This document shows positions 6,173-42,329 of a DNA stretch of 64,000 bases, piece after piece. How positions within the stretch are numbered: the first letter of the stretch is position 1; every line of letters begins with the position of its first letter. This DNA comes from Anaerolineales bacterium (lineage in GTDB: Bacteria; Chloroflexota; Anaerolineae; Anaerolineales; JABWBV01): positions 6,941 through 70,940 of the forward strand of contig DATKDL010000227.1 in the NCBI GenBank assembly GCA_035512695.1, given 5' to 3'. The notes beneath the pieces were generated by a model that did no database searches, was not told where the DNA came from, and was given only the letters and a program-made list of their open reading frames with translations. The translations under genes were made by a program, and so were the position numbers.

Positions 6173-6175
6173 AAA

Positions 6176-29773: not shown

Positions 29774-30828
29774 TTCCGGTTTGCGACAGCCTGCCCCAGG
29801 TGGTAGCAGGCCAGCGGATGGCCGGGCTCCAGCCGGATCCGGACCGGCGTCCCGGGGCGGATCAGCTCGGTGTGCGCCTTCATCGCGTGCAGCAGCCGGC
29901 CGGACGGCAGCCGCAGCCGGTAGATGTTGTATGCGCCTTTGAAATGGCGGGCCAGGACCATCGATTCCCCGGCCTCGCTCTGCTCGAAGACGACGTCGTC
30001 GAAGCGGACGGCGACCTCCACCTCGGTGCCCGGGGGGAGGTCCAGCCGCTGGTCGAGCAGCCCGATCTCGGTCTCGACCCCGTCTTCCCGAACGACGCCG
30101 GGCAGGAAATCGGTGCTGCCGATGAACTCGGCCACGAAACGGGTCTGCGGGGTGTGGAAGATCTCATCCGGCGCGCCGGTCTGGACGATCCGGCCCCGGT
30201 CCATGACGGCCAGGCGGTCGCCGAGGAAAAGCGCCTCTTCCTGGTCGTGGGTGACGAAGACGGCAGTCGAGCCGGTGGCTTTCAGGATGGCACGGACGTC
30301 TTCGCGCACCTGTGCCCTCCGGTCAGCGTCCAGGTTGCTGAAGGGCTCGTCCAACAGGATCAGGACCGGTTTGGTCGCCAGGGCGCGGGCGAGCGCAACG
30401 CGCTGCCGCTCGCCGCCGGAGAGCTCGTGCGGGTAGCGGTCTCCGAAACGTTCGAGCCCGGTCAGCCGGAGCAGGTAGGCGATCTGCCGTGAGGAGTCTT
30501 TTCCGTCCAGCCCGAAGGCGATGTTCTCGGCGGCGGTCAGGTGCGGAAACAGGGCGTGCTCCTGGAAGACCATCCCGACGCCGCGTTTCTCGGGAGGGAC
30601 GAAACGCCCGCCTCCGGCCACCATCCGCCCGGCAATGGCGATCTCCCCGGCATCCGGCCGGATAAAACCGGCGATCAGCCGCAGAGTCGTCGTCTTCCCG
30701 CAGCCGCTGGGGCCGAGAAGCGCCAGGATCTCGCCTTCCCGGACCTCCAGGTCCAGGTCGTAGACGGCCGGGATCTCCCCGTCGAAGGTCTTGGTCAGAC
30801 CCCGGCAGACGACGGCGAAATCATCCAT
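29770..30828 (-). CDS. ABC importer ATP-binding protein (FbpC/PotA-like, with C-terminal TOBE-like domain)
   Basis: Walker A GPSGCGKTT, signature LSGGERQRVALARAL, Walker B LLDEPFSNLD. Confidence 0.9.
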   Translation of the reverse strand: MDDFAVVCRGLTKTFDGEIPAVYDLDLEVREGEILALLGPSGCGKTTTLRLIAGFIRPDAGEIAIAGRMVAGGGRFVPPEKRGVGMVFQEHALFPHLTAAENIAFGLDGKDSSRQIAYLLRLTGLERFGDRYPHELSGGERQRVALARALATKPVLILLDEPFSNLDADRRAQVREDVRAILKATGSTAVFVTHDQEEALFLGDRLAVMDRGRIVQTGAPDEIFHTPQTRFVAEFIGSTDFLPGVVREDGVETEIGLLDQRLDLPPGTEVEVAVRFDDVVFEQSEAGESMVLARHFKGAYNIYRLRLPSGRLLHAMKAHTELIRPGTPVRIRLEPGHPLACYHLGQAVANRK

Positions 30829-31198
30829 ATCCGGTCCCTTCCACCAGGACTTCGATCAATGGGCTATCTTCGATAAATTGCTCGAGCTGGCCCTGCCGGT
30901 TCCAGCGCTCGACGACCCGCGTGAGGACCGCCCGGCGCTCGGCCGGTTCCGTGATCGGCCTGGCGGTCGCGGCGAGGTCCGCCTGCGCGCTCTGCTTGAG
31001 GTGAAAAGTGAACTGCGGATCGGCGAGCAGGTTGGCGAACCAATCGCGCCGGCCGGGCATTCCGCTGATGTAGATCGTCCCGTCCAGATAGTGGAAGGTG
31101 ATCTCGATCCGGTGAGGTTCGCCGGACTTGCGGCCGGTGGTGGTGATATCGACCAGGCGGTCGGTTTGGAGGGCGTTTTCGATTTTTTCGATATCCAT
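30821..31198 (-). CDS. Nitroreductase-family deazaflavin-dependent oxidoreductase-like (DUF385/DDN split-barrel)
   Basis: TTTGRKSGEPHRIEITFHYLDGTIYISG...WFANLLADPQ matches the DDN-family core pattern. Overlaps the ATPase start by 8 nt. Confidence 0.7.
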   Translation of the reverse strand: MDIEKIENALQTDRLVDITTTGRKSGEPHRIEITFHYLDGTIYISGMPGRRDWFANLLADPQFTFHLKQSAQADLAATARPITEPAERRAVLTRVVERWNRQGQLEQFIEDSPLIEVLVEGTGYG

Positions 31199-31220
31199 CG
31201 TATTCTTTCCACACCGGTAC

Positions 31221-31283
31221 CGGAAATTTCGAACCGCAGCGGGGTGGTTCTGCGAACCACCCCGCTGCGGTTCGAAATTTCCG
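31221..31283 (-). terminator. 30-bp perfect hairpin between permease and DDN-like genes
   Basis: CGGAAATTTCGAACCGCAGCGGGGTGGTTC, loop TGC, then the exact reverse complement. Confidence 0.7.
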
Positions 31284-31291
31284 ATTCTTTA

Positions 31292-32842
31292 TCAGAGATC
31301 TCTGCGGAGAATCAGAATCCCCATCGGGACAGAGGATACCACGATCAAGAGCAGCGCGGGTACGGCGGCTCGGGCGAAGAAGACGGCGTTGACGGCGCCC
31401 CAGACCGACGTGGCCAGGGTTCCGAAGCCGATCGGGCTCAAGATCAGGGTCGCCGGGAGTTCCTTCATCGCGGTCAGGAAGACGAGGGCGGCGCCGGAGA
31501 GCAGCCCCGGGCGCACGATCGGCAGGATCACCCGGCGAAATACCGTCAGCGGCGAGCGGCCCAGGCTGCGGCCGGCCTCTTCCAGGTTTGGGTGGACCTG
31601 TTTCAGGGAGGTCTGGACGGCGCCGGTGGCTTGCGGGAGGAACAGGACCAGGTAGGCGAAGATCAGCATGGGGATGGTCTGGTACAGCCAGGGCGCGTAG
31701 TTGGCCCCGAAAAAGACCAGCGCCAGGGCGATGACGACCCCCGGCAGCGCAAAACCGATGTAGGAAACCCGGTCCAGCAGCCCGGCCAACCGCCCAGGCC
31801 GCCGGACGGACAGCACCGAGACAGGCAGCGCCGCAGCCACGATCACGACCGCCGCCGCGGCGGAGACGGCCAGCGAGTTGAAGGTCGCCCCCCAGTGTCG
31901 GCCGAGCTGCTCGCCGGCCGCAAACCCGCGCACCAGCCAGAAGCCCAGGTTGGCGGCAGGGATGACGAGCGAAACCAGCACGACGAACCCGCAGAAAAGG
32001 ACGGCCGGGAGCTTCCAGCGCCCGAGCGGCAGGATCGCCGGCGGGCGTTTGAAAGAACCCGAGCTATACAGCCTGTGCGCCTGCTGCGTCCGCTGCTCGA
32101 TCCATATCATCCCGATCGTCACCGCCACCAGGACCAGCGCCAGCCCGGCTGCGGCGGAGCGGTCGATCAGCGATTGGTACTGGATGTAGATGACCCGTGT
32201 GAAGGAATCGTAGCGCATGATCGCCACCGCACCGAAATCCCGCAGTGCGTAGAGGGCGACCAGCAGGCTCCCCGCCGCGAGACCCGGGCGCATCTGCGGG
32301 AAGGTCACCTTCCAGAAAGTGTCCCACGCCGTCCGGCCCAGGCTGCGTGAGGCCTCTTCAAGCGCCGGGTCCATCCCAAGCAGCGAGGCGCGGACGCTCA
32401 GCAGGGTGTACGGGTAACTTAAAAGGGTCAGGACGGTCAGCGCCCCGGGGAAGCCGTAGATCGATGGCAGACGCTCCACCCCCAGCGGTTCGAGCCAGCC
32501 CTGGAGCAGGCCGCGCGGGCCGATCGTCGAGACCATAAGGTAAGCCCCGATATAGCTCGGGATCACGAGCGGCAGGGCGGTCAGCACGGCCCAGAAGCGG
32601 CGTAAAGGCAGGTCCGTCCGGACGGTCAGCCAGGCCAGGGGCGTGGCAAGCAGGGCGGAGCAGAAGGCCACTCCGATCGCCAGGGCGAGGCTGTTGCCCA
32701 AAACGGCGGCATTTTGCGGGCGGAAGACGGTCTCCCACAGCCCCTGGCTCCCACTCGCAGCCCGGATGACCAGGTACACGACCGGAACCAGCAGGCTCGC
32801 CGCCACCAGCGCCGCGGGGAGCCAGAGCAGCAGGCTGCGCAA
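31292..32842 (-). CDS. Fe(III)/thiamine-type ABC importer permease (duplicated two-domain FbpB-like)
   Basis: Two tandem binding-protein-dependent permease domains. Start set to TTG 32842, just after the hairpin. The track start 32977 reads through the hairpin and the SBP stop region. Start uncertain. Confidence 0.8.
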   Translation of the reverse strand: MRSLLLWLPAALVAASLLVPVVYLVIRAASGSQGLWETVFRPQNAAVLGNSLALAIGVAFCSALLATPLAWLTVRTDLPLRRFWAVLTALPLVIPSYIGAYLMVSTIGPRGLLQGWLEPLGVERLPSIYGFPGALTVLTLLSYPYTLLSVRASLLGMDPALEEASRSLGRTAWDTFWKVTFPQMRPGLAAGSLLVALYALRDFGAVAIMRYDSFTRVIYIQYQSLIDRSAAAGLALVLVAVTIGMIWIEQRTQQAHRLYSSGSFKRPPAILPLGRWKLPAVLFCGFVVLVSLVIPAANLGFWLVRGFAAGEQLGRHWGATFNSLAVSAAAAVVIVAAALPVSVLSVRRPGRLAGLLDRVSYIGFALPGVVIALALVFFGANYAPWLYQTIPMLIFAYLVLFLPQATGAVQTSLKQVHPNLEEAGRSLGRSPLTVFRRVILPIVRPGLLSGAALVFLTAMKELPATLILSPIGFGTLATSVWGAVNAVFFARAAVPALLLIVVSSVPMGILILRRDL

Positions 32843-32862
32843 AGAGGGTTTTGATGATGTGA

Positions 32863-32913
32863 AAAAAACGGACTTGCGCACCGGGCTTCGCCCCGTGCGC
32901 AAGTCCGTTTTTT
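32863..32913 (-). terminator. Hairpin between SBP and permease genes
   Basis: AAAAAACGGACTTGCGCAC / GTGCGCAAGTCCGTTTTTT: 19 bp, plus an apical GGG-CTTCG-CCC. Confidence 0.6.
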
Positions 32914-32942
32914 CGGTTACAGGCGGCAGCATCGTCGAGTGA

Positions 32943-33944
32943 TCAAGGCAGCGCTCCTGTCGATTGCAGCAGCTCAACCGTGCCGGCCAAATCCTCCAGG
33001 TCGGCCAGGTTGATCGCCGGACTGGTCAGGCTTTCCAGAACCGGAAGTTCACTCGGTAGGGCCACGCCCGCGATGACCGGGTATTCGAAGGTCTCTTCGG
33101 CGAAGTAAGCCTGGGCGGTCGTCCCCAGCAGGAAGTCCAGGAACGCCTGGGCGTATTCCTCATTGTCGCTGGAGGCCAGTACACCGGCCCCGGCGACCAT
33201 AACCAGCGACCCGGGCCCCCCGGAGTCCAGGAAAGCGTTGCGGGCGGAGAAGCTCTCCCCTTCCTCGGCTAGAAAGCGGTAGAGGTAATAATGATTGACG
33301 AATCCGACTTCGACCTCACCCGCCGCGACGGCGGCGACGATCGATGTATTGTTCTCATAGACGACCGGGTTGTTTGCGATGATGCCCTCCAGCCAGGCGC
33401 GGGCCTCGTCCTCACCCCAGATCTGGCGCATCGCGGTGACCATAACCTGGAGCGAGCCGTTGGTCGGCGCCCAGCCGATCCGGCCGGACCAGGCCGGGTC
33501 GGTGAAGCCCATGATATCGTCGGGCAGGTCATCCGCGGAGAGCATATCCGTATTGTAAACGACGACCCGGGAGCGCCCGGAGATGCCGACCCAGGTCCCT
33601 TCGGGAGAGCGGAAGCCGGGCGGAACCCGGTCCAGCAGGTCGTCCGGCAGTTCTGCGAACAGGCCGGCGGCGGCCACGGCGCCGAGACCGCCGGGGTCCT
33701 GCGCCCAGAAAAGGTCGGCGGGCGAATTGGCGCCCTCCTCGAGGATCGTGGCGGCCATCTCGGCCGTCCCACCGTAGCGGACCTCGACCTCGATCCCGGT
33801 CTCGGTGGTGAACTGTTCGATGATCGGGGCGACCAGGCTCTCGCTGCGGCCCGAGTAGAGGACGAGGGGGGTTTCCTCCTGCGGGCTGCAGGCGGCGAGC
33901 GGAAGCAGGACGGCGAACAGAAACAGGTAACGAAAAATCTTCAT
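32943..33944 (-). CDS. Fe(III)-type ABC importer substrate-binding lipoprotein (FbpA/AfuA-like)
   Basis: MKIFRYLFLFAVLLPLAAC lipoprotein signal with AAGGAG 7 nt upstream. Periplasmic-binding fold sequence (LVLYSGRSE...). The track start 34181 is an extension. Confidence 0.85.
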   Translation of the reverse strand: MKIFRYLFLFAVLLPLAACSPQEETPLVLYSGRSESLVAPIIEQFTTETGIEVEVRYGGTAEMAATILEEGANSPADLFWAQDPGGLGAVAAAGLFAELPDDLLDRVPPGFRSPEGTWVGISGRSRVVVYNTDMLSADDLPDDIMGFTDPAWSGRIGWAPTNGSLQVMVTAMRQIWGEDEARAWLEGIIANNPVVYENNTSIVAAVAAGEVEVGFVNHYYLYRFLAEEGESFSARNAFLDSGGPGSLVMVAGAGVLASSDNEEYAQAFLDFLLGTTAQAYFAEETFEYPVIAGVALPSELPVLESLTSPAINLADLEDLAGTVELLQSTGALP

Positions 33945-34114
33945 GTAGATGCTCCTTTTGAACCGATCCGAATATTCGGAGGCCGGGCGATTTGGGGGTA
34001 GAATTATGAGCCGGGACAGGAGCGCCGCTCCCATCCGGACTTGAATCTCCCGGGTACGAGCGACAGTATATCGGCAGGGTGCGTCCTTTCCTACTACCTT
34101 GTATTGAATTTCAC

Positions 34115-34131
34115 TTTCAACCTGGTTGAAA
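34115..34131. promoter_or_regulatory. 17-bp perfect palindrome, candidate operator
   Basis: TTTCAACCTGGTTGAAA in the divergent SBP/DtxR intergenic region. Confidence 0.25.
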
Positions 34132-34139
34132 TCTGATTG

Positions 34140-34188
34140 CTGGAAAATGGGGCATGAATGTCGAAACCATTCATGCCCCATTTTCCAG
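34140..34188. promoter_or_regulatory. 49-nt perfect palindrome abutting the DtxR-family gene start
   Basis: CTGGAAAATGGGGCATGAATG, loop TCGAAAC, CATTCATGCCCCATTTTCCAG: 21-bp arms. It ends 6 nt before ATG 34195. It shares its outer module with hairpin 58732-58788 (a looser variant occurs at 43284-43336). Confidence 0.5.
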
Positions 34189-34194
34189 AATATT

Positions 34195-34929
34195 ATGAAA
34201 ATTTCTCAGACCATGCGCCGTTATGCGGCCGAGATCTACCGCCTGCAGCAGGACCACCCCTACGCGCCGCTTTCGTCGGTGGCGGAGCATGTCGACGCGT
34301 CGCTGCAAGCCGTCTCGCGGATGGTCATCCGGATGGAGCAGGCAGGGTTGGTGACGCGCGAGCCGTACCGGGGGATGCGGCTCACGCCGGAGGGGGAAAG
34401 GGAAGCTATGCCGGCGCTGCGCCGGCACCGGCTGACGGAGGTCTTCCTGGTCAAGGTGATGAACTTCGGCTGGGAGGAGGCCCACGAACTGACCGACCAT
34501 TTCGAGCGCGGGATCGACGAGACCCTGGAGGACCGGATCGACGAACTGACCGGGCGCCCGACCCGCTGCCCACACGGGGAGGCGATCCCGTCGAAGGACG
34601 GCGTCATGCCGGTGGTCAACGATACGGCGCTCGTCAACCTTCAGCCGGGGGAGGCCGGGCACATCAGCCGGGTCCGGACGCACGACCCCGACAAGCTGCG
34701 CTACCTGGCGGCGGAGGGGCTGGTCCCGGGGACCGGGTTCAAGGTCGTCGGCCGGGCGCCGTTCAACGGGCCGCTGCGGGTGCTGGTGGACAGCAGGGAA
34801 TATGTCTTAGGGCCGGAGCTTTCGGCCTGGATCTGGGTGGAGCGGCTGGACGGGGAGATCGACCCGAGTTTGTGCAACCGGACGGGGTGCCCGCTACCGA
34901 AGGCGACGCATTTATATCTGAAAAAGTAG
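34195..34929 (+). CDS. DtxR/MntR-family metal-dependent transcriptional regulator with FeoA/SH3-like C-terminal domain
   Basis: N-terminal wHTH (YAAEIYRLQQDHPYAPLSSVAEHVDASLQAVSRMVIRMEQAGLV), metal-site region RRHRLTEVFL, and C-terminal GEAGHISRV...GLVPGTGFKVV. Confidence 0.85.
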   Translation: MKISQTMRRYAAEIYRLQQDHPYAPLSSVAEHVDASLQAVSRMVIRMEQAGLVTREPYRGMRLTPEGEREAMPALRRHRLTEVFLVKVMNFGWEEAHELTDHFERGIDETLEDRIDELTGRPTRCPHGEAIPSKDGVMPVVNDTALVNLQPGEAGHISRVRTHDPDKLRYLAAEGLVPGTGFKVVGRAPFNGPLRVLVDSREYVLGPELSAWIWVERLDGEIDPSLCNRTGCPLPKATHLYLKK

Positions 34930-34964
34930 ACCAACCGGGGCCGGCCCCGTATGGTCTACTTTTT
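34921..34964. terminator. Bidirectional terminator between the DtxR-family gene and the loader gene
   Basis: AAAAAGTAGACCA / TGGTCTACTTTTT outer stem with an inner GGGGCCGGCCCC palindrome. Spans both stop codons. Confidence 0.65.
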
Positions 34965-36433
34965 CATTGCTTCTTCTTGCCCCCCCGATACGGCGGCACC
35001 GTCAGCGCGTAGATCCGCGCCACCCGCTGGTCCAGCATCCGGCTGGCGATGTAGGGTTCGTTCTTGTAAAGGTTCTCCAGCGTGTCCGCCGTGGTCACCA
35101 CCGTCGGGAGCTCGCGCACGTGCCGGTGGTTGAACAGCTGGTTCAGCTTCTCCCGCACCCAGTTCGTCATCGACTGCCTACCCAGGTCGTCCAGCAGCAG
35201 CAAGGGGACGTCCTTGAAGCTGTCGAACTGGCGGTCATAGCGGCTGCGGTTTTCCGGGGCAAACGTCGCCCGCAGTTCGTCCAGCAGGTCGGGGATGCTG
35301 ACGAGCAGCGGCGGGTATCCCAGCCCGGCGCGGTAGTTGCCGATCGCGGCGGCCAGGTGGGTTTTCCCGGTCCCGTTCGCGCCCATCAGGATCAGCCAGC
35401 CGTGCGGGCTCTCGGCGAACTGGCGGGCGGACTTGAAGGCCATGGCGAGCGAGCGGACTTCGTCCGCCGGGAGGCCTTCCCCGCCCCGCTCCTCGAAGTT
35501 CCCGAAGGTCAGTTGCGCGAAATGCGGCAGGGAGGACAGCTCGTGGTGCCCGGTGTCGTCAGCCGGGCGGCGGTAATCCGGGGACTGGATCGTGACGCGG
35601 GTGACCAGCTCCGGGTCCTGCAACCGGGAGCGCAGGCGCGGCTCGACCTCGTCGAGCGGGAGGTTGGTGGTCACCACCAGGGGGAGCTTGTTTGTGTAGC
35701 GGTAGTTGAGGATCTGGAATAGCTTCTCCCCGGCCCATTCGGTCGCGTTCTGGGTGCCGAAATCGTCCAGGACGAGCAGCGGGGCGCGGCGGACGGCCTC
35801 AAATCGCTCTTCGAAGGTCTCCTCGGTGGAGCTGTAGGCGAAACGGAGCTGGTCGAGCAGGTCCGGGACGGTGAGGAAAAGGGCCGGGACGCCGAGCGAG
35901 GCAGATTCGTTGGTGATCGCGGCCGCCAGGTGGGTCTTCCCGCAGCCGTAGCCGCCCTGCAGGACCAGCCAGCCGTCCTGGCTCTGCGCGAACTGGCGAG
36001 CCTGGTTGAAAGCCCGTTCGAGCGAATCGGCCTGGTAAGGGCCAATCCCGATCCGGCCGCGCGGCTGGAAGGCCTCAAAGGTCAGGTTCTCGAGCCGGTT
36101 GAGGTGGCTGAGGGCGAAGAGCTTTTCGCGCGCCCGCGCTTCGATCTCCGGTTGGCGGCACGAGCAAACGTGCATCCGGCCGAACTCGGGATGGCCGACC
36201 GGGACGTCGTAGCTGATGTAGCCGATCCCGCGGCAGTGCGGGCAGTCCGGGTCGCCCAGGCGGCCGGGCAGGTCCGCGGGCGACCGCGGCGCCGGGGTTT
36301 CGTCCGCGGCCGGTTTATCTTTCGACAAAGATTTATCTCTCGATAAAGATTTATCTCTCGATAAATTCCGAGAACTCGCCTTCGATATATTTTCGGCCGC
36401 TTGTTTCAGCGGCTTGTCGATCTTCCCGGTCAT
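34964..36433 (-). CDS. DnaC/DnaI-like helicase loader homologue with zinc-ribbon N-terminus and two tandem AAA+ modules
   Basis: CPHC..(x23)..CSC cluster. Module 1: GGYGCGKTHLAAA, LLVLDDFG, VVTTN. Module 2: GANGTGKTHLAAA, LLLLDDLG, VVTTA. ATG 36433 overlaps the upstream gene by 83 nt; the alternative TTG at 36328 would remove the overlap. Confidence 0.8.
   Translation of the reverse strand: MTGKIDKPLKQAAENISKASSRNLSRDKSLSRDKSLSKDKPAADETPAPRSPADLPGRLGDPDCPHCRGIGYISYDVPVGHPEFGRMHVCSCRQPEIEARAREKLFALSHLNRLENLTFEAFQPRGRIGIGPYQADSLERAFNQARQFAQSQDGWLVLQGGYGCGKTHLAAAITNESASLGVPALFLTVPDLLDQLRFAYSSTEETFEERFEAVRRAPLLVLDDFGTQNATEWAGEKLFQILNYRYTNKLPLVVTTNLPLDEVEPRLRSRLQDPELVTRVTIQSPDYRRPADDTGHHELSSLPHFAQLTFGNFEERGGEGLPADEVRSLAMAFKSARQFAESPHGWLILMGANGTGKTHLAAAIGNYRAGLGYPPLLVSIPDLLDELRATFAPENRSRYDRQFDSFKDVPLLLLDDLGRQSMTNWVREKLNQLFNHRHVRELPTVVTTADTLENLYKNEPYIASRMLDQRVARIYALTVPPYRGGKKKQ
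36313..36366. repeat. 3 x 18-bp tandem repeat across the dnaD-like stop / loader 5' end
   Basis: GTTTATCTTTCGACAAAG, ATTTATCTCTCGATAAAG, ATTTATCTCTCGATAAAT. It encodes SRDKSL repeats in the loader frame. Confidence 0.75.
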
Positions 36434-37046
36434 TTCGTCCTTTTTCGCGCCACGAGTGCAGGATCGCTTCGACGTAGCGCCACTTGCGCACGTTGTTCGA
36501 TAGGGCGATCGCGAGCGCGTCCTCGATCCATTCCGGCGGGTACTCAGCCTCGGCCTCCCGCAAGGTGTCCGCCAGCAGCGGGGTCAGCGGGCCGATGTTC
36601 TTCTCGTAAAGTTGGAATATATTCGGCCGCTCCGGCAGAGGTTCCGGGATCTCTTCGTCGTCCGGTCCCCACCGGCCTTCCTCCAGCCCCCGCAGGGCGG
36701 CCCGGCCGCGCGGCGAGTTGAGCAGGTAAAGCATCTGCTCCTCTTCGCCGCCCCGGAATACACCCCGCAGCAGGATCCCCCGGGCGACGGCCCGCTCGAG
36801 CGAGTCGGCGATGGCCGCCTTCCGCTCCGCCGGCGTCTCCCCGAAACCGGCTGTGAAATCCGCATCTCCCAACACGGCTTCCGGATCCAGGTACGGCTGC
36901 GGCGCTTCCTGCCGCTCGAGCCGGTGCAGGGCGTACAGGCTGATCTTGAGTTCGCCGAGGTGGTCAATGGCGGGGAGCAGGTCGTGGAAGAAGGCGGACG
37001 GGACCGCCGTGGCGCCGCGATTTGATTCAAATCCTGAAAACGGCAT
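36351..37046 (-). CDS. DnaD-domain replication protein (DnaD/DnaB_2-like)
   Basis: C-terminal WIEDALAIALSNNVRKWRYVEAILHSWREKG matches the DnaD/phage replisome-organiser domain. GGAGGA upstream of ATG 37046. Sits between dnaB and the loader. Confidence 0.7.
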   Translation of the reverse strand: MPFSGFESNRGATAVPSAFFHDLLPAIDHLGELKISLYALHRLERQEAPQPYLDPEAVLGDADFTAGFGETPAERKAAIADSLERAVARGILLRGVFRGGEEEQMLYLLNSPRGRAALRGLEEGRWGPDDEEIPEPLPERPNIFQLYEKNIGPLTPLLADTLREAEAEYPPEWIEDALAIALSNNVRKWRYVEAILHSWREKGRNDREDRQAAETSGRKYIEGEFSEFIER

Positions 37047-37127: not shown

Positions 37128-38489
37128 TCATCGCATTTGGGTCACGTCGTACGTCACCCGCGCCGCATTCTCGAACTTGGCCAGCTCCGAGCGGAAATAC
37201 AGGTGAACGCTGCCGACCGGGCCGTTGCGGTGCTTGGCGACGATGATCTCGGCCGCGTTGGTCATCGTCGAATCCGGCTCGTACTGGTCGGGACGGTAAA
37301 TGAACATGACCACGTCCGAGTCCTGCTCGATCGATCCGCTTTCGCGCAGATCGGACAGCATCGGGCGTTTGTCGGCGCGCTGCTCGACGGCCCGGGAGAG
37401 TTGGGCGGCGGCCAGCACCGGCACGTTGAGCTCTTTGGCCAGCACCTTGAGCTGCCGGGAGATGAATGACACTTCCTGGACCCGGTTCTCGTTGCGCATC
37501 CCGCTGCTCATCAGCTGGATGTAGTCGATGATGATCAGGTCCAGGTTGAACTCCATGTGTAGCCTGCGGCATTTCGTGCGCAGTTGGAGCGGGGTGATCG
37601 CCGGGGTGTCATCCAGGTAAATGTGGGTGTCTCCCAGGACCTCGATCGACTGGGCGAAGATCGGCCACTCGTTTTCGGACAGCTTGCCGGTGCGGAGGCG
37701 CTGGGAGTCGATCCCCGTCTCCTGTGCGATCAGCCGCTGGACGAGCTGCTCGTTGGACATCTCCATCGAGAAGATGGCGACGTGCTTGTTGCGCTGGGAG
37801 GCATTCCGGGCGACCGACATCATGAAGCCCGTCTTGCCCTGGCCGGGTCGGCCGGCGATGATCAGGAGGTCGGAGGGCTGCAGGCCGCTCAGCAGCCGGT
37901 CCAGGTCGATGAAGCCGGTCGGGACGCCGAGGATCTCCTCGTCTCGGTGCGAGAGGCGGTCGACCCGTTCGTAATAGTCGCTCAGGACGGTCTGGATGGG
38001 CTGCAAGGCGGTGTTGAGGCGCCGTTCGCTGACCCCGAAGATCGATTTCTCGGCCTCGTCCATGGCGCTGTCTACCGTAATCCCTTCTTCGTAGGCTAGC
38101 TTGGCGATCTCGTTGGCGGCCGAGATCATCCGGCGCCGGATTGACGTCTCCTCGACGATCCGCCCGTAGGCCTCGGCGTGCAGCGAAGTCGGGACGTTGC
38201 CGACCAGGGCGGTCAGGTAGGCCGGGCCGCCGAGTTCGGCCAGCTGACCGGTCTGGTCCAACTCCTCGGTGACGGTCAGGAAATCGATCGGAATCCGGCG
38301 CTCATTGAGCCGGACGAAAGCTTCCCAGATCCATTGGTGGCGGTGGATGTAGAAGTCCTCGGTGCGCAGGAACTGGGCCACCTCGAAATAGCTGTCCGGG
38401 TTGATCATCACCGAGCCGAGGACCGCTTCCTCGGCTTCACGCGAATGGGGGACGATGTGGGGGGCGCCGCCGTTGCTCTGGGACGTCAT
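37128..38489 (-). CDS. dnaB: Replicative DNA helicase
   Basis: N-terminal PHSREAEEAVLGSVM, Walker A GRPGQGKTGFMMS, and IIIDYIQLM Walker B region. 453 aa. Confidence 0.95.
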   Translation of the reverse strand: MTSQSNGGAPHIVPHSREAEEAVLGSVMINPDSYFEVAQFLRTEDFYIHRHQWIWEAFVRLNERRIPIDFLTVTEELDQTGQLAELGGPAYLTALVGNVPTSLHAEAYGRIVEETSIRRRMISAANEIAKLAYEEGITVDSAMDEAEKSIFGVSERRLNTALQPIQTVLSDYYERVDRLSHRDEEILGVPTGFIDLDRLLSGLQPSDLLIIAGRPGQGKTGFMMSVARNASQRNKHVAIFSMEMSNEQLVQRLIAQETGIDSQRLRTGKLSENEWPIFAQSIEVLGDTHIYLDDTPAITPLQLRTKCRRLHMEFNLDLIIIDYIQLMSSGMRNENRVQEVSFISRQLKVLAKELNVPVLAAAQLSRAVEQRADKRPMLSDLRESGSIEQDSDVVMFIYRPDQYEPDSTMTNAAEIIVAKHRNGPVGSVHLYFRSELAKFENAARVTYDVTQMR

Positions 38490-38497
38490 GGGCAGGT

Positions 38498-39112
38498 TCA
38501 GGGTCCGTCGATGTCGGGGGCGTCATCGTCATCGTCGTCCCCGTCATCCTCTTCGTCATCCCCGCTGCCAAAATCGAGCCCTTCCAGAAAATCTTCGAAA
38601 ACGGAGAGCCGCTCTTCAGCCGCCGGATCTTCATCCTCGGTGGTCTCGAGCTGTTCCCGCTCGCGGCGGGAGAGGACGACGTCCGACTCAAGGCTTTCCT
38701 CGGGGATGATCCCGGCGTCCTCCATCACATCCTCTTCGACCAGGATCGGGATCCGGGCCCGGACGGCGATGGCCAGCGCATCCGACGGGCGTGAGTCGAC
38801 GTCGATCGTCTCCCCGTTCAGCTCGGCGACGATGTTGCCGTAGTAGACCTGGTCGCGCAGGGAATTGACTTCCACCCGGACCAGCCGGGCGTTTAGCGTG
38901 CGGAAGACGCTCAACAGCAGATCGTGGGTCAGGGGGCGGGAGGTCTCGGTGCCCTGCAGGGCGATGGTGATCGCCTCGGCCTCGTACGGACCGATCCAGA
39001 TCGGCAGATACCGGTCGGCGTCCTTCTCGCGCAGGATGACGATGCGCTGCTGCGACATCAGGCTGACCCGGATGCTGTCGATCACGACTTCCACGTAGTT
39101 TGTATCTGTCAC
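38498..39112 (-). CDS. Bifunctional nuclease family protein (DUF151/BFN) with acidic tail
   Basis: RYLPIWIGPYEAEAI...RPLTHDLL...DSRPSDALAIAVR core of the BFN domain. C-terminal GDDEEDDGDDDDDD. GTG start with GGAG upstream. Only 8 nt from dnaB. Confidence 0.85.
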   Translation of the reverse strand: MTDTNYVEVVIDSIRVSLMSQQRIVILREKDADRYLPIWIGPYEAEAITIALQGTETSRPLTHDLLLSVFRTLNARLVRVEVNSLRDQVYYGNIVAELNGETIDVDSRPSDALAIAVRARIPILVEEDVMEDAGIIPEESLESDVVLSRREREQLETTEDEDPAAEERLSVFEDFLEGLDFGSGDDEEDDGDDDDDDAPDIDGP

Positions 39113-39188: not shown

Positions 39189-39300
39189 GAGAGGGCGAAT
39201 AGGGGAATGGGCGAGAGGGCGAATGGGCGAGAGGGCGAGAGGGCGAATGGGCGAATGGGCGATTCACCCATTCGCCCATTCGCCCATTCGCCCATTCCCC
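39189..39300. repeat. Octamer microsatellite (GAATGGGC/GAGAGGGC) with inverted copies forming a hairpin
   Basis: About 9 direct 8-mers (39189-39260) followed by about 3.5 inverted copies (39267-39297). The core 15-bp stem is 39245-39259 / 39267-39281. The GT2 stop codon (39264-39266) sits in the loop. Confidence 0.75.
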
Positions 39301-40289
39301 TCCTCCCCCAACACCCTCTTCACCGTATATGTCGGTTTGCGCTGCGATTCGTGGTAGGTGCGAACGAGGAGTTCGGCGATCAGACCCATCAGGACAGACT
39401 GAACACCGAGGATCAGGAGCATGATCCCGACGATGAAGAGTGGTGAATCGAAAACCGATGTCCCGAGCCACAGGCGGCGCACCAGCAGGAAGAGCAGCAT
39501 CAACCCGCTCCCGCCCATCAAGGCGATCCCGGTCCCGCCGAACAGGTAGATCGGTTTGGCCGCGTAGCTGATCAGGAATTTGACCGTGAACAGGTCCAGG
39601 ATGACTTTGACGGTCCGCTCGAGGCCGTACTTGGTGCGGCCGAACCGGCGCGGGTGGTGCCGGACCGGCACCTCGACGATCCGGGCTCCGACCGTGCCGG
39701 CGTAGGCCGGGATGAAGCGGTGCATTTCCCCGTAAAGCCGGAAACCGGTGATGACCTCGCGGCGATAAGCCTTGAGCGTGCAGCCGTAATCGTGCAGGTG
39801 GACCCCGGTTACACGTGAGATGATCCCGTTGGCGATCCGGGATGGGAGGGTGCGGGTGATGAAGCGGTCTTGCCGGTCGCGGCGCCAGCCGCTGACCACG
39901 TCATAGCCTTCTTCGATCTTTGCGACCATCATCGGGATATCGGCCGGGTCGTTCTGTAAATCGGCGTCCAGCAGGACGATGATTTCGCCTGCGGCGTGAT
40001 CGATCCCGGCCGCGACGGCCGCCGTCTGGCCGAAATTGCGGCGCAGTTCGACCACCCGGACACGACCCGGATCACCGGCCTGCAGCTTCTCCAGCACCGA
40101 CACGCTGCCGTCCGTGCTGCCGTCGTCGACGTAGACGACCTCCCAGATATGCGGCAGGTCCCGGAGCGCCTCGCAGATCTTCTGCTGCAGAATCGGCAGG
40201 CTATCTTCTTCGTTGCGGACGGGGATCACGAGGGAGAGGTGCACGAGGGGAAGTATGAGACCGGGAAGGGGTTTTGTCAATCGAAACAT
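39264..40289 (-). CDS. GT2 polyprenol-phosphate glycosyltransferase (ArnC/GtrB/DPM1-like, with C-terminal TMs)
   Basis: LSLVIPVRNEE, VYVDDGSTDGS, LDADLQNDP, and two C-terminal TM helices. Confidence 0.9.
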   Translation of the reverse strand: MFRLTKPLPGLILPLVHLSLVIPVRNEEDSLPILQQKICEALRDLPHIWEVVYVDDGSTDGSVSVLEKLQAGDPGRVRVVELRRNFGQTAAVAAGIDHAAGEIIVLLDADLQNDPADIPMMVAKIEEGYDVVSGWRRDRQDRFITRTLPSRIANGIISRVTGVHLHDYGCTLKAYRREVITGFRLYGEMHRFIPAYAGTVGARIVEVPVRHHPRRFGRTKYGLERTVKVILDLFTVKFLISYAAKPIYLFGGTGIALMGGSGLMLLFLLVRRLWLGTSVFDSPLFIVGIMLLILGVQSVLMGLIAELLVRTYHESQRKPTYTVKRVLGEEGNGRMGEWANG

Positions 40290-40340: not shown

Positions 40341-42329
40341 TTAGGGTTCAATTAAATTTACCGGCGGACATTCCGGGTTTGCCTTCGGCGCCAGCACCTC
40401 GACCCGCGCGGTTTCGAGGGTCTGGACCTCCTCGTAAAAGCACAGCAGCGGGTAGGTGACGTACCTGTCCCAGGCGTCGTTCTCCTCGCCGAACCGGAAT
40501 GCGCTGCCCTGGGGATTGTAGCGGACCGGGTCGGTCACGATCAGGGCGAAGCGGCCGTTCTCCAGTTCGCTTTCGAACCGGTCCAGATAGTCCGTGTTCC
40601 CGGCCATGGCCATCTCCATCAGAAAGACCTTCTCGTAATCGGGGACCAGGGCGACCGCTTCAAAAGGGCCGAAGACGAGCAGGTGCCGCTCGGCGATGAA
40701 CAGGACCGCTCCCCCGCCGGCGACAGCCTCATCGACCAGCCGCTCCAGATCGGACAATTCGGCCGCCAGGGCATCCGGGTCTTTCGCCTGGACCGGTACC
40801 CCCACCGAAACCGCGAACCCGATCGGGACCAGGATCGCCAATCCCACGACCCACCGCGGGACGTCCCCCATACGGACCCCGGACCCGAGCACCCCGCACA
40901 CAACCGCCGCCAGCAGCAGGGCGATGTACCCGTCCAGGTTGTGCAAATTGCTCCCGCCGCCGATCTTGACGCTGACGACCAGCCCGCCCGCGAGAAAGAC
41001 GGCCAGGATCGCCGCGATCCAATGTTGGGGCAGGGCTCGTCCCTGCCCGGCTCGTCCCTGCCCGGACCGGACCTGCCCGGACCGGACCGCCCACCAAAGC
41101 GCCGCCGCCGGGGGAAGTGTCACCAACAGGATCCCCGGCAGGACGCCCAATGGGTAGGTGGCGCTCGGAAACAATCGATACCACAGCAGGTCGGAGGTGA
41201 AGGCCGAGCCGAACTGGTCGGGCGGGTTTCCGGAGAGGGCCATATAGGTCGATTGCGCGGCGAACCCGGCCCCCGTACCGGCGATCCCCCAGGCCAGGAC
41301 CGGGGCCAGGTAACGCGGCAGCGAGCGCCCGTCCTGTGGGACCTCGATGAAATAGATCAAGGCAGCCAGGGCAGCCGGGAACGGGATCCAATTGACCCGG
41401 CTGGCGCCGGCCCAGATCGATGCCGCGACCACAACGAGCAGCGTCCGCCGGAAATCGGCGGCGTCGATCCCCCAGTACAGCAGGGCCGCTATGACAACCA
41501 GGTGATACCAGATCGGACCCTGGAACAGGAACAGGAACGCCCAGACCGCCAGCAGCGCCCGCCCGGCGCCCCCGCCGCTGCGCAGCCCGGGCCGCCGCGC
41601 CAGCAGCCAGGCGGCCAGGCCGTTCGCCCCGAGCCACAGGAAGACCTGCCAGAGCCGGTGGATCCACAACGGCAGCCCGCTGACCAGGAACGGCGCCGCC
41701 TGCAGCCAGTACCGGGTCGGGTGCAGGACGCTCCAGGGCACACGCTCCCCGTAGATCCGCTCGGCCGCAAACAGCGAAGCGTAATAGTAGCGGCTGGCCT
41801 CCGACCAACCGAGCGAGAACGGGCTGGTCGATATGTCCGGGATGAACACCGCAGCCTGGTGGACGGCGGCGAAGGCCAGCGCTGTGCCCGCCAGGAGCGA
41901 CTCGAATGAATGCGCCTTGAACCCGGTCGAGAGGGCGATCGCCCCACCCAGGGCAGCCAACCAGAACGCAACGGCCCGCCAGGAGAAGGTCTCCATCAGC
42001 CGTCCGAGGGGCTCCGGCAATGGAGCCAGGACGAGGACCGGCAGAACCAGGGCAAACAGCCCGCACAACGCGGCGGCAGGCGGTGGGGGGAGCGCCGTTC
42101 GGGACCATTTCTCCCGGATCCGGTTTGCCAGCCCGCGGCCGGCTGGCAGCCAGCCGAAGACGAACAAGATCACAGCGGCGAGCAGGGCCAGCCCCCACAT
42201 TGCGAACAGGACCAGCCACTGTGTCGAGGCAGTCGTCACGCCCAGGTCGCGGGCCGTCGAAATCGCGTCCACCAGGCCGGCCGCCAGGAGCAGGACGGTC
42301 GCGCCGGTCATCCAACGGAAACCGGTCAT
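40341..42329 (-). CDS. Hypothetical polytopic membrane protein with soluble C-terminal domain (possible GT-C-like)
   Basis: More than 12 predicted TM helices, then a ~150-aa soluble tail. ATG 42329 overlaps the upstream TGA (TGATG). No diagnostic motif recognised. Confidence 0.6.
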   Translation of the reverse strand: MTGFRWMTGATVLLLAAGLVDAISTARDLGVTTASTQWLVLFAMWGLALLAAVILFVFGWLPAGRGLANRIREKWSRTALPPPPAAALCGLFALVLPVLVLAPLPEPLGRLMETFSWRAVAFWLAALGGAIALSTGFKAHSFESLLAGTALAFAAVHQAAVFIPDISTSPFSLGWSEASRYYYASLFAAERIYGERVPWSVLHPTRYWLQAAPFLVSGLPLWIHRLWQVFLWLGANGLAAWLLARRPGLRSGGGAGRALLAVWAFLFLFQGPIWYHLVVIAALLYWGIDAADFRRTLLVVVAASIWAGASRVNWIPFPAALAALIYFIEVPQDGRSLPRYLAPVLAWGIAGTGAGFAAQSTYMALSGNPPDQFGSAFTSDLLWYRLFPSATYPLGVLPGILLVTLPPAAALWWAVRSGQVRSGQGRAGQGRALPQHWIAAILAVFLAGGLVVSVKIGGGSNLHNLDGYIALLLAAVVCGVLGSGVRMGDVPRWVVGLAILVPIGFAVSVGVPVQAKDPDALAAELSDLERLVDEAVAGGGAVLFIAERHLLVFGPFEAVALVPDYEKVFLMEMAMAGNTDYLDRFESELENGRFALIVTDPVRYNPQGSAFRFGEENDAWDRYVTYPLLCFYEEVQTLETARVEVLAPKANPECPPVNLIEP
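41035..41094. repeat. In-frame 15-bp minisatellite (4 units) inside the 40341-42329 gene
   Basis: GGCTCGTCCCTGCCC x2, then GGACCGGACCTGCCC and GGACCGGACCGCCCA. Encodes VRSGQVRSGQGRAGQGRA in a loop. Confidence 0.75.

What the first reader, a model, noticed from the sequence alone, without database searches (positions are those of the whole stretch)
34964..36433. Helicase-loader homologue with two complete tandem AAA+ modules behind a zinc ribbon
Seen in sequence: the 489-aa product has an N-terminal four-Cys cluster (CPHC...CSC), then two colinear DnaC/DnaI/IstB-like AAA+ modules of about 190 aa each. Both have intact motifs. Module 1: Walker A GGYGCGKTHLAAA, Walker B LLVLDDFG, sensor-I VVTTN. 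Module 2: GANGTGKTHLAAA, LLLLDDLG, VVTTA. Both also have matching flanks (LTFxxF, ARQFAxSxxGWL).

Established knowledge: characterised bacterial loaders (DnaC, DnaI) and IstB carry one AAA+ module and assemble non-covalently on DnaB.

Inference: a covalently duplicated loader, sitting in an operon directly after dnaB and a DnaD-like gene, would be an unusual way to build the loader oligomer.
Basis: partly seen in the sequence, partly recalled or inferred. Interest (0 to 1): 0.7.

Follow-up and report, generated by a model that had tools for sequence, protein, structure and literature searches.

The report
Tandem two-module DnaC/DnaI-type helicase loader
This gene encodes a helicase loader with two copies of the ATPase module fused in one chain; the fusion is real, old and standard in Chloroflexota, the second copy has lost part of its catalytic kit, and I found no paper that describes it.

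Summary
ORF 34964-36433 (-) encodes 489 aa: a disordered tail, a conserved four-Cys element (C64, C67, C90, C92), then two co-linear DnaC/DnaI/IstB-type AAA+ modules that are 43% identical (E 3e-44).

It is not an assembly artefact. At least 573 GTDB species genomes encode a relative, and the best 80 all match at full two-module length. Named members are Anaerolineae or Dehalococcoidia. The gene almost always follows BFN-dnaB-dnaD-like.

The duplication is old: no module's closest relative is its own partner.

One correction. Module 2 is not fully intact. Its sensor-I Asn is Ala or Ser (never Asn in 120 close homologues) and its sensor-II Arg is half lost. Walker A/B, the Arg finger and the ssDNA-contact residues are kept.

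Rare variants carry three or four modules, and a one-module relative sits in the same operon.

Best reading: this is the lineage's chromosomal DnaB loader, a covalent, functionally asymmetric AAA+ pair, perhaps three chains per hexamer.

Databases call it only "ATP-binding protein" or "DnaC". I rate it a new variant of a known kind, of moderate interest.

The parts
34964..36433 (-). Whole loader ORF, 489 aa including the stop codon at 34964-34966. NCBI's call of the same gene starts 35 codons later, near 36328.
   Evidence: P0001 is 100% identical, 454 aa. An AAGGA sequence lies 5-9 nt upstream of the ATG at 36433.
36260..36433 (-). N-terminal low-complexity, predicted disordered tail (aa 1-58). 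It holds SRDKSL repeats encoded by an 18-nt tandem repeat at 36314-36365 and overlaps the 3' end of the dnaD-like ORF by 83 nt.
   Evidence: pLDDT is below 50 for model residues 16-55. Tandem repeat. Sequence.
36155..36259 (-). Four-Cys zinc-ribbon-like element (aa 59-93): C64-P-H-C67 ... H81 ... C90-S-C92. By analogy with the N-terminal domain of DnaI it is the presumed helicase-interaction domain.
   Evidence: Translation. C64 and C67 are present in 114/120 close homologues, C90 and C92 in 120/120, H81 in 117/120. The model shows two short strands followed by a helix. No Pfam family or PDB fold matches it.
35558..36154 (-). Module 1 (aa 94-292): a linker helix plus a complete DnaC/DnaI-type AAA+ core. 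Walker A K166/T167, Walker B D223/D224, sensor-I N257, Arg-coupler R266, Arg finger R270, sensor-II R288. ssDNA-contact equivalents R197, Y200, T231, W233.
   Evidence: all seven catalytic residues are 120/120 in close homologues. The model has two helices between beta2 and beta3, which is the initiator-specific motif. Walker A at 35933-35956.
34967..35557 (-). Module 2 (aa 293-489): a second AAA+ core of the same clade. Walker A K357/T358, Walker B D415/D416 and Arg finger R465 are kept, as are the ssDNA-contact equivalents R388, F391, T423, W425. The sensor-I position is A449, the coupler position is Y461, and the sensor-II position R483 is only half conserved in the family.
   Evidence: Walker A at 35360-35383. 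The conserved inter-module linker PDYRRPxDDTGHxELSSL appears.
36351..37046 (-). DnaD-domain (DnaB_2/DDBH2) protein, 231 aa. Presumed co-loader or origin adaptor. Translationally overlapped with the loader gene.
   Evidence: PF07261 E 2.3e-11 and TIGR01446 E 1.8e-11. Found immediately upstream of the loader in 80/80 related loci.
37128..38489 (-). Replicative helicase DnaB, 453 aa, the presumed client of the loader.
   Evidence: TIGR00665 scores 554.6 bits against a cutoff of 385.25; DnaB and DnaB_C Pfam domains are present. Syntenic in 77 of 80 related loci.
38498..39112 (-). Bifunctional-nuclease-domain (BFN) protein with an acidic C-terminal tail. It is the first gene of the conserved BFN-dnaB-dnaD-loader cluster. 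Whether it belongs to the function is unknown.
   Evidence: PF02577 E 1.5e-39. Upstream of dnaB in about 70 of 80 loci.

Best explanation
This is the chromosomal replicative-helicase (DnaB) loader of this Chloroflexota lineage. It is a DnaC/DnaI-clade AAA+ protein in which one N-terminal zinc-ribbon domain is followed by two covalently linked AAA+ modules that are no longer equivalent.

Shown:
- Both modules belong to the DnaC/DnaI/IstB clade.
- The gene is fixed in a dnaB-dnaD-loader operon.
- The duplication predates the diversification of the family.
- Module 1, and one-module relatives, keep all catalytic residues.
- Module 2 keeps the residues for nucleotide binding (Walker A/B), the trans-acting Arg finger and the ssDNA-contact residues, but has relaxed sensor-I, sensor-II and Arg-coupler positions.

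Inferred:
- On DnaB the modules assemble into the usual open AAA+ spiral, with module 1 and module 2 alternating.
- That gives two kinds of composite ATP site. The fully equipped site is module 1's pocket plus module 2's Arg finger, and it would be the hydrolytic switch. Module 2's pocket plus module 1's finger mostly binds ATP and holds the pair together.
- Three chains, and so only three zinc-ribbon helicase-binding domains, would supply six AAA+ modules per DnaB hexamer. This would hard-wire the trimer-of-dimers arrangement seen for B. subtilis DnaI.
- The DnaD-domain protein encoded just upstream would link the complex to DnaA at oriC, as in Firmicutes.
For: Architecture and clade:
- The halves are 43% identical, E 3e-44.
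- Each half alone hits IstB_IS21 (5.7e-19 and 1.3e-13) and ranks the same NCBIfam families and PDB chains, with DnaI and DnaC on top.
- Foldseek on the AF2 model (pLDDT 79) gives single-domain matches to A. aeolicus DnaC 3ec2 (TMt 0.79), DnaI 2w58 (0.72) and E. coli DnaC 6qem_G (0.66).
- The model has two helices between beta2 and beta3 in both modules, which is the initiator-specific motif.

Real and lineage-wide:
- More than 8000 word-sharing homologues; the top 120 are 402-489 aa except one of 827 aa.
- At least 573 GTDB species genomes encode a relative, and the best 80 match at full length.
- 665 clusters at 50% identity have E<=1e-30. About 120 of the top 150 carry two modules.
- Named members are Anaerolineae or Dehalococcoidia.

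Role:
- dnaD-like is directly upstream in 80/80 related loci, and dnaB upstream of that in 77/80.
- The four-module variant (L081) and the one-module relative (L082, which also has rplI next to dnaB) sit in the same operon slot.
- The window has no other module-like ORF.
- Brezellec et al. 2016 (PMC5109545) list a domesticated dna[CI] in Chloroflexi.
- C. difficile has the same DnaD-like/loader/helicase neighbourhood (PMC5204125).

Old duplication and asymmetry:
- The nearest neighbour of 77/81 N-modules is another N-module, and of 68/81 C-modules another C-module. It is never the module's own partner.
- One-module relatives resemble N-modules.
- Across 81 diverse proteins (N-module / C-module): Walker A Lys 81/80, Walker B Asp 81/79, Arg finger 76/78, sensor-I Asn 45/9, coupler Arg 64/36.
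- In 120 close homologues the sensor-I position of module 2 is Ala 78, Ser 35, never Asn. Sensor-II is Arg 56, His 55.
- In E. coli DnaC, N203A or R237D abolishes ATPase activity, and R216A uncouples it from ssDNA (PMC8213410).

ssDNA contact: equivalents of DnaC K143/F146/S177/Y179 are conserved in both modules (alignments; conservation).

Trimer-of-dimers precedent: DnaI binds DnaB as three dimers whose two subunits contact the helicase differently (PMC3791466).
Against: - There are no biochemical data for any member.
- The inter-module geometry is not established. pTM is only 0.55 and no coordinates or PAE were available, so I cannot say that modules 1 and 2 form a canonical AAA+ interface, nor which ATP site would be completed within one chain.
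- Variants with three or four modules behind a single zinc ribbon, sitting in the same operon (P0123; P0011 in L081), do not tile a hexamer as 3 x 2. Strict 3:6 stoichiometry therefore cannot be general.
- In the wider family 35 of 81 C-modules still have a polar Ser, Thr or Asn at the sensor-I position, so module 2 may hydrolyse ATP in some members.
- The zinc element shows no detectable similarity to the DnaI N-domain, so helicase binding by it is an assumption.
- I could not check whether these genomes also encode DciA or a second loader.
Confidence: 0.7

Rival explanations
1. Module 2 is not a working member of a six-module spiral. It is a built-in regulatory pseudo-protomer. It would cap module 1's oligomerisation face or supply its Arg finger within the chain, making a self-contained ATP switch that keeps the loader monomeric or autoinhibited until DnaB, DnaD or ssDNA is bound. 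Six chains would then still bind one DnaB hexamer.
For: Module 2's cis-acting catalytic residues (sensor-I, sensor-II) are relaxed while its trans-acting Arg finger is kept. The C-type module is always the terminal one, including in the three- and four-module variants. Regulation by N-terminal or linker elements has been reported for DnaI-type loaders (abstract of PMC4887207; the DnaI NTD is described as a 'molecular switch' in PMC3791466).
Against: Module 2 keeps its Walker A Lys (80/81), its Walker B Asp (79/81) and all four ssDNA-contact equivalents (R388, F391, T423, W425) about as well as module 1 does. A module that itself binds ATP and ssDNA would be expected to keep these; a mere cap would not. 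Variants that amplify the N-type module up to three times argue that extra modules extend an oligomer rather than cap it.
Confidence: 0.2
2. The gene belongs to a mobile element. It would be an IstB-like transposition helper or a prophage or plasmid replication module, not the chromosomal loader.
For: The best Pfam family is IstB_IS21. dna[CI] genes are thought to derive from phage genes (PMC5109545).
Against: No transposase or phage gene is adjacent; the neighbours are dnaD-like and a DtxR-type regulator. The IstB equivalog scores 131 bits against a cutoff of 200. The BFN-dnaB-dnaD-loader order is conserved across 80 species-level genomes with differing outer flanks, including chromosome-scale contigs such as L080 (3.4 Mb) and L065 (1.86 Mb). 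The adjacent DnaB passes the replicative-helicase equivalog cutoff. In L082 rplI sits next to dnaB, which is the usual chromosomal context.
Confidence: 0.04
3. The two-module ORF is an artefact. Two adjacent one-module genes would have been fused by a sequencing or assembly error (a missed stop or frameshift near 35.5 kb).
Against: The continuous two-module reading frame recurs in independent assemblies of at least 80 species at full length, and in hundreds of 50%-identity clusters. The inter-module linker PDYRRPxDDTGHxELSSL is one of the best conserved stretches in the protein.
Confidence: 0.01

Closest known systems
DnaI of Bacillota (B. subtilis / G. kaustophilus DnaI; PDB 2w58, 4m4w; NCBIfam PRK08939)
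   Same: It is the best-scoring solved relative of each module (E 8.9e-18 and 4.5e-15). The layout is similar: an N-terminal Cys/His metal-binding domain followed by an AAA+ core. It works with DnaD-family proteins, and its gene lies next to a DnaB_2-family gene. On the helicase it forms a trimer of dimers with non-equivalent subunits (PMC3791466).
   Different: DnaI has one AAA+ module per chain; this protein has two. The score is 132.9 bits against the family cutoff of 228. The zinc element here shows no detectable sequence or fold similarity to DnaI_N. The dimer is covalent here, and its second member has degenerate sensor residues.
E. coli / A. aeolicus DnaC (PDB 6qel/6qem, 3ec2; NCBIfam PRK07952)
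   Same: The AAA+ fold with the initiator-specific motif is shared (TMt 0.66-0.79). The R-x-x-x-R coupler/finger motif, the sensor-I Asn and the K143/F146/S177/Y179-type ssDNA patch are all recognisable in module 1. Most are recognisable in module 2.
   Different: DnaC has one module, a helical rather than zinc-binding N-terminal domain, and binds DnaB 6:6. The score here is 107.8 bits against a cutoff of 357.
Clostridial-type DnaC-like loaders (NCBIfam PRK08116 / PRK06835 / PRK06921; e.g. C. difficile CD3654)
   Same: PRK08116 is the best-scoring family. The PRK06835 and PRK06921 profile matches begin at residue 63, so they include the CxxC...CxC element. The gene neighbourhood is the same: a DnaD-like gene next to the loader and near the helicase (PMC5204125).
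   Different: Those proteins have one module and are about 270-330 aa. CD3654 is monomeric and binds the helicase 6:6. Here the PRK08116 cutoff of 189 is reached (219.3 bits) only because two modules add up; alone they score 123.6 and 99.8 bits.
One-module relatives in the same operon (e.g. P0301, 278 aa, locus L082)
   Same: It has the same zinc ribbon, the same module type (closest to the N-module, 45% identity to residues 64-288), the same rplI-dnaB-dnaD-loader order and the same 83-nt overlap with dnaD.
   Different: It lacks the second module. It probably represents the state before duplication. Its host taxon is unknown (JGI metagenome, 43% GC).
IstB of IS21-family elements (PDB 5bq5, 8q3w)
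   Same: It belongs to the same AAA+ clade and the same Pfam family, PF01695.
   Different: It scores lower than DnaI and DnaC for both modules. The equivalog cutoff is not met (131 against 200). There is no IstA transposase nearby, and IstB has one module.

Membership tests
DnaC/DnaI/IstB clade of AAA+ ATPases (Pfam PF01695) | A significant profile match of the ATPase core, for each module separately. | tested here: met
   Module 1 scores 69.0 bits (E 5.7e-19) and module 2 scores 51.5 bits (E 1.3e-13); the cutoff is 24.1.
DnaC/DnaI/IstB clade of AAA+ ATPases (Pfam PF01695) | An initiator-specific motif (two-helix insertion between beta2 and beta3) and no canonical lid domain. | tested here: met
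   The DSSP string of the AF2 model shows helices 188-197 and 206-214 between strands 183-187 and 218-224, and helices 379-390 and 398-406 between strands 375-378 and 411-416. Each module ends right after beta5 (model numbering is real numbering minus 1). This rests on a predicted model, not a solved structure.
DnaC/DnaI/IstB clade of AAA+ ATPases (Pfam PF01695) | A full catalytic set: Walker A Lys, Walker B acid, sensor-I Asn, Arg finger, sensor-II Arg. | tested here: inconclusive
   Module 1 has all of them (K166, D223/D224, N257, R270, R288; 120/120 in close homologues). Module 2 has K357, D415/D416 and R465, but Ala449 at sensor-I and a half-conserved R483. The feature is met for module 1 and not met for module 2.
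DnaI (NCBIfam PRK08939; Pfam DnaI_N PF07319) | A score above the family cutoff. | tested here: not met
   132.9 bits against a cutoff of 228.
DnaI (NCBIfam PRK08939; Pfam DnaI_N PF07319) | An N-terminal DnaI-type zinc-binding helicase-interaction domain. | tested here: not met
   The N-terminal 72-aa fragment matches no Pfam or NCBIfam family at E<=1. The AF2 model of aa 55-135 has no PDB match with E<1. A conserved four-Cys element does exist, but homology to DnaI_N is not shown.
DnaC (NCBIfam PRK07952) | A score above the equivalog cutoff. | tested here: not met
   107.8 bits against a cutoff of 357.
IstB, IS21 helper ATPase (NCBIfam NF038214) | A score above the cutoff and an adjacent IstA transposase. 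| tested here: not met
   131 bits against a cutoff of 200. The neighbours are dnaD-like and a DtxR-type regulator.
PRK08116 subfamily (uncharacterised DnaC-like proteins) | A whole-protein score above the cutoff of 189. | tested here: met
   219.3 bits over two stretches. Each module alone is below the cutoff (123.6 and 99.8 bits), and the profile is 269 positions long, so it models a one-module protein.
Bacterial replicative helicase loader (functional class) | Conserved genomic linkage with the replicative helicase gene. | tested here: met
   dnaB-dnaD-loader order in 77 of 80 related loci and in L081 and L082.
Bacterial replicative helicase loader (functional class) | Binds DnaB, opens or assembles the ring on ssDNA, and has ATPase activity stimulated by DnaB and ssDNA. 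| not testable with these tools
   This needs biochemistry. Only conservation of the ssDNA-contact and ATP-site residues could be shown.

The most novel reading that the evidence does not exclude
Chloroflexota load DnaB with three covalent AAA+ pairs rather than six free protomers. Three helicase-binding domains would then suffice. The loader spiral would be built from alternating catalytic sites (module 1 pocket with module 2 finger) and structural, ATP-binding sites (module 2 pocket with module 1 finger). The module count per chain (one, two, three or four in natural variants) would tune how the spiral is assembled. That would make this family a natural experiment on how many ATP sites and helicase contacts a bacterial loader really needs.
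Probability: 0.3. Interest if true: 0.7.

Novelty: new variant of a known kind. Interest (0 to 1): 0.55.

Why it matters
Models of bacterial helicase loading rest on one-module loaders (DnaC, DnaI) that form a six-membered AAA+ spiral non-covalently. Which of the six ATP sites and six helicase contacts are actually needed is still inferred from mutants that change all six at once.

A natural loader whose protomers are fused in pairs, with one member of each pair stripped of its sensor residues, lets the two interface types be mutated separately. It also gives a direct test of the trimer-of-dimers picture proposed for DnaI.

It shows too that a large, environmentally abundant phylum (Anaerolineae and Dehalococcoidia) uses a loader architecture that current annotation hides under 'ATP-binding protein' or 'DnaC'. 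The best family model (PRK08116) is a one-module profile that this protein passes only by counting twice.

The one-, three- and four-module relatives in the same operon slot give an evolutionary series to work with.

Tried and rejected
- Assembly or frameshift artefact: rejected. The full-length frame is conserved in 80 of 80 best species loci, and the linker is highly conserved.
- One half belonging to another AAA+ clade: rejected. Family and PDB rankings are identical for both halves.
- Recent or recurrent duplication: rejected. No module has its own partner as nearest neighbour. A crude NJ tree did not give a clean N/C split, though; the largest pure clade held 40 of 81 C-modules. A single origin is therefore likely but not proven.
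- Zinc ribbon homologous to DnaI_N: no support. There were no Pfam or NCBIfam hits. The separate AF2 model of aa 55-135 (pLDDT 74.6) found nothing in the PDB.
- Whole-model Foldseek hits to p97, NSF and NVL (rmsd 10-18 A, TMq about 0.4): discarded. They arise because those proteins also have two AAA+ domains in sequence. They say nothing about stacked-ring geometry.
- Inter-module geometry: could not be read. The tool returns no coordinates or PAE, and pTM is 0.55.
- Literature: five searches and two full-text look-ups found no description of a tandem DnaC/DnaI loader. The library does not cover subscription journals, so this is absence of evidence only.
- My own slip: references of the form window:34964-36430:- dropped Met1, not the stop codon. 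Residue numbers in A1, A2 and model m9ad6df259557 are therefore real numbering minus 1. All numbers in this report use real numbering unless stated otherwise.
Full report
**1. What is there**

The minus-strand ORF 34964-36433 encodes 489 aa. It has four parts.

- Residues 1-58 form a low-complexity tail. It contains SRDKSL repeats encoded by an 18-nt tandem repeat at 36314-36365. The model predicts it disordered (pLDDT below 50).
- Residues 59-93 hold the Cys cluster C64-P-H-C67 ... H81 ... C90-S-C92. In 120 close homologues C64 and C67 are present in 114, C90 and C92 in all 120, and H81 in 117.
- Residues 94-292 and 293-489 are two co-linear units. Each is a short helix, an 'LTFxxF' segment and an AAA+ core.

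The two units align at 43% identity over 185 residues, E 3e-44. Walker A is GGYGCGKT at 35933-35956 and GANGTGKT at 35360-35383.

A note on numbering. My references of the form window:34964-36430:- dropped Met1. Alignments A1 and A2 and the AF2 model are numbered one lower than the real protein. Real numbering is used here.

**2. Both halves belong to the same clade**

Taken separately, each half hits Pfam IstB_IS21 (E 5.7e-19 and 1.3e-13). Each ranks NCBIfam families in the same order: PRK08116, then IstB/PRK06835/DnaI, then DnaC, then DnaA/Hda. Each ranks solved structures in the same order: DnaI 2w58 and 4m4w, E. coli DnaC 6qel, S. pyogenes and S. aureus DnaI, A. aeolicus DnaC, IstB, DnaA.

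The AF2 model of the whole protein has mean pLDDT 79 and pTM 0.55. It shows two alpha/beta cores. Each has two helices between beta2 and beta3, which is the initiator-specific motif, and neither has a lid domain.

Foldseek gives good single-domain matches:

| Structure | TMt | rmsd |
|---|---|---|
| A. aeolicus DnaC 3ec2 | 0.79 | 2.5 A |
| S. aureus DnaI 5he8 | 0.77 | |
| DnaI 2w58 | 0.72 | |
| E. coli DnaC 6qem_G | 0.66 | |

The long alignments to p97, NSF and NVL have rmsd of 10-18 A. They reflect only that those proteins also have two AAA+ domains in one chain.

No equivalog cutoff is met: DnaI 132.9 against 228, DnaC 107.8 against 357, IstB 131 against 200. The one-module profile PRK08116 (269 positions) is passed at 219.3 bits against 189, but only because two modules add up. 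Alone they score 123.6 and 99.8 bits.

**3. It is real, old and the norm of the lineage**

- The word-indexed search saturated at 8000 hits. The top 120 are 402-489 aa, with one exception of 827 aa. They come from Anaerolineales or Chloroflexota MAGs and are named 'ATP-binding protein' or 'DNA replication protein DnaC'.
The best 80 all match over essentially the whole two-module length at 54-64% identity.
- The exhaustive search of 50%-identity representatives found 665 clusters at E<=1e-30. About 120 of the best 150 carry two modules.
- Distant two-module members at 33-36% identity are labelled Dehalococcoidia or Chloroflexota and include Tara Oceans sequences.
- Two of the 80 loci are labelled Nitrosomonadaceae and Bacteroidota. 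They carry the same operon at 58% identity and are probably mis-binned contigs.

A frameshift or assembly artefact is excluded. The inter-module linker PDYRRPxDDTGHxELSSL is among the best conserved stretches of the protein.

**4. Genomic role**

The upstream genes on the same strand are:

- a DnaD-domain protein at 36351-37046 (PF07261, E 2.3e-11), which overlaps the loader ORF by 83 nt;
- DnaB at 37128-38489 (TIGR00665, 554.6 bits against 385.25);
- a bifunctional-nuclease-domain protein at 38498-39112.

The order dnaD-loader is present in 80 of 80 related loci. dnaB precedes it in 77, and BFN precedes that in about 70. The outer flanks vary. Some of these loci lie on Mb-scale contigs.

No transposase or phage gene is adjacent, and the window has no other module-like ORF.

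Brezellec et al. 2016 list a domesticated dna[CI] gene in Chloroflexi (PMC5109545). C. difficile has the same neighbourhood of a DnaD-like gene, the loader and the helicase (PMC5204125).

The gene is therefore best read as the chromosomal DnaB loader of this lineage.

**5. History of the duplication**

I split 81 diverse two-module proteins into N- and C-modules and compared them all against all.

- The nearest neighbour of 77 of 81 N-modules is another N-module.
- The nearest neighbour of 68 of 81 C-modules is another C-module.
- It is never the module's own partner.

So the duplication predates the family's diversification. A crude NJ tree did not give a clean two-way split, so a single origin is likely but not proven.

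One-module relatives that carry the same zinc ribbon are closer to N-modules. One of them, P0301 (278 aa), sits in an rplI-dnaB-dnaD-loader operon with the same 83-nt overlap (L082). This looks like the state before duplication.

Rare proteins carry more modules.

- P0011 (827 aa) has four Walker A motifs. Its modules are of types N-N-N-C. It lies in a dnaB(intein)-dnaD-loader operon (L081) and was seen on two contigs.
- P0123 (792 aa) has modules of types N-N-C.

Expansion therefore occurs by amplifying the N-type module, and the C-type module stays terminal.

**6. The two modules are not equivalent**

The functional residues of E. coli DnaC come from Puri et al. 2021 (PMC8213410): Walker A K112, Walker B E170, sensor-I N203, Arg-coupler R216, Arg finger R220, sensor-II R237, and the ssDNA tetrad K143/F146/S177/Y179.

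The equivalents here are as follows (alignments). The pairing of R266/R270 with R216/R220 rests on the shared R-x-x-x-R pattern. HMMER's terminal alignment is shifted by four residues at that point.

| Element | Module 1 | Module 2 |
|---|---|---|
| Walker A | K166 | K357 |
| Walker B | D223/D224 | D415/D416 |
| Sensor-I | N257 | A449 |
| Arg-coupler | R266 | Y461 |
| Arg finger | R270 | R465 |
| Sensor-II | R288 | R483 |
| ssDNA tetrad | R197, Y200, T231, W233 | R388, F391, T423, W425 |

In 120 close homologues all seven module 1 residues are invariant. In module 2:

- K357, D415 and R465 are invariant, and D416 is present in 119 of 120;
- the sensor-I position is Ala 78, Ser 35, Val 3, Thr 2, and never Asn;
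- sensor-II is Arg 56, His 55;
- the coupler is Arg in 113, and this protein is one of five with Tyr.

Across 81 diverse proteins the counts are:

| Residue | N-module | C-module |
|---|---|---|
| Walker A Lys | 81 | 80 |
| Walker B Asp | 81 | 79 |
| Arg finger | 76 | 78 |
| Sensor-I Asn | 45 | 9 |
| Coupler Arg | 64 | 36 |
| Tetrad Arg | 76 | 73 |
| Tetrad Trp | 79 | 77 |

One-module relatives have Asn at sensor-I in 12 of 13 and the coupler Arg in 13 of 13.

In E. coli DnaC, N203A or R237D abolishes ATPase activity, and R216A makes it independent of ssDNA.

Module 2 keeps nucleotide binding, the trans-acting finger and the ssDNA contacts. It has relaxed the cis-acting hydrolysis sensors.

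**7. Most likely mechanism (inference)**

On DnaB the modules would form the usual open AAA+ spiral with N- and C-modules alternating. That gives two classes of composite ATP site.

- Module 1's pocket completed by module 2's finger R465 has every catalytic element and would be the hydrolytic switch.
- Module 2's pocket completed by module 1's finger R270 would mainly bind ATP and hold the assembly together.

Three chains would supply six modules but only three zinc-ribbon domains. This would be a covalent version of the trimer of dimers seen for B. subtilis DnaI on DnaB, where the two subunits of each dimer contact the helicase differently (PMC3791466).

Several points weigh against a strict 3:6 rule or leave it open.

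- The three- and four-module variants do not tile a hexamer as 3 x 2.
- The relative orientation of the modules is not established. pTM is 0.55 and I had no coordinates or PAE.
- The zinc element has no detectable similarity to DnaI_N, so its role in helicase binding is assumed.
- 35 of 81 C-modules still have Ser, Thr or Asn at sensor-I.

The main rival is that module 2 is an internal regulatory cap and six chains still bind. I give this about 0.2. The retained Walker A/B and ssDNA tetrad of module 2, and the existence of variants that amplify the N-module, argue for real participation in the oligomer.

**8. Novelty**

Every characterised member of the clade has one AAA+ module: DnaC, DnaI, CD3654 and IstB.

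Five literature searches and two full-text look-ups found no description of a tandem loader. The library omits most subscription journals, so this is not proof. Databases carry the proteins in large numbers under generic names.

I therefore class it as a new, undescribed variant of a known kind. It is lineage-wide rather than a curiosity of this genome, and of moderate interest. It does not overturn the loading paradigm. It does offer a natural covalent, asymmetric loader pair, plus one-, three- and four-module relatives, for dissecting how many ATP sites and helicase contacts loading needs.

Noticed in passing
window 36314-36365 and 36351-36433: An 18-nt tandem repeat (2.9 copies, 94% matches) encodes the SRDKSL repeats of the loader's disordered N-terminus. 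The loader ORF overlaps the dnaD-like ORF by 83 nt. The same 83-nt overlap occurs in the one-module locus L082 (dnaD-like ends at 5083, loader starts at 5001). NCBI's gene call avoids the overlap by starting 35 codons later.
   Followed up: partly
window 39189-39324: Arrays of an 8-nt unit (AGGGCGAA about 9 times, then its complement ATTCGCCC about 4.5 times) form an imperfect 63-nt-arm palindrome (78% complementary, 5-nt spacer). It lies between the BFN gene and the 3' end of the glycosyltransferase ORF 39264-40289. It is translated as GEWANGRMGEWANG at the end of that ORF. It may be a hairpin, a terminator or a repeat element.
   Followed up: partly
window 38498-39112 (-): A bifunctional-nuclease-domain (PF02577) protein with a poly-acidic C-terminal tail lies directly upstream of dnaB. 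It holds this position in about 70 of 80 related Chloroflexota loci. That suggests a conserved, unexplained link between a BFN protein and the helicase-loading operon.
   Followed up: partly
L081 7001-9484 (protein P0011) and 4433-6259: A loader with four tandem AAA+ modules (827 aa; module types N-N-N-C) sits behind one zinc ribbon in the same dnaB-dnaD-loader slot. The dnaB there carries an intein (608 aa, PF14890). A further protein, P0123 (792 aa), has modules of types N-N-C.
   Followed up: partly
L082 2592-5837: A one-module relative with the same zinc ribbon (P0301, 278 aa) sits in an rplI-dnaB-dnaD-loader operon on a 532-kb metagenomic contig (43% GC, taxon unknown). It probably represents the state before duplication. 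Its sensor-I position is Cys.
   Followed up: partly
L044 and L057: Contigs assigned to a Nitrosomonadaceae MAG and a Bacteroidota MAG carry the Chloroflexota-type BFN-dnaB-dnaD-tandem-loader operon at 56-58% identity. They are most likely binning errors in those MAGs.
   Followed up: no
window 41034-41092, inside ORF 40341-42332 (-): 15-nt tandem repeats (about 3.5 copies) encode a GQVRSGQGRAGQGRA-type repeat inside a large multi-pass membrane protein ORF.
   Followed up: no
window 29770-34929: Downstream of the loader lies an iron-uptake-type ABC system: ATPase 29770-30828, permease 31292-32977 and substrate-binding protein 32943-34181, all on the minus strand. Next to it is a divergent DtxR/FeoA-type metal regulator (34126-34929, +). 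The regulator gene recurs next to the loader in only about 5 of 80 related loci.
   Followed up: no
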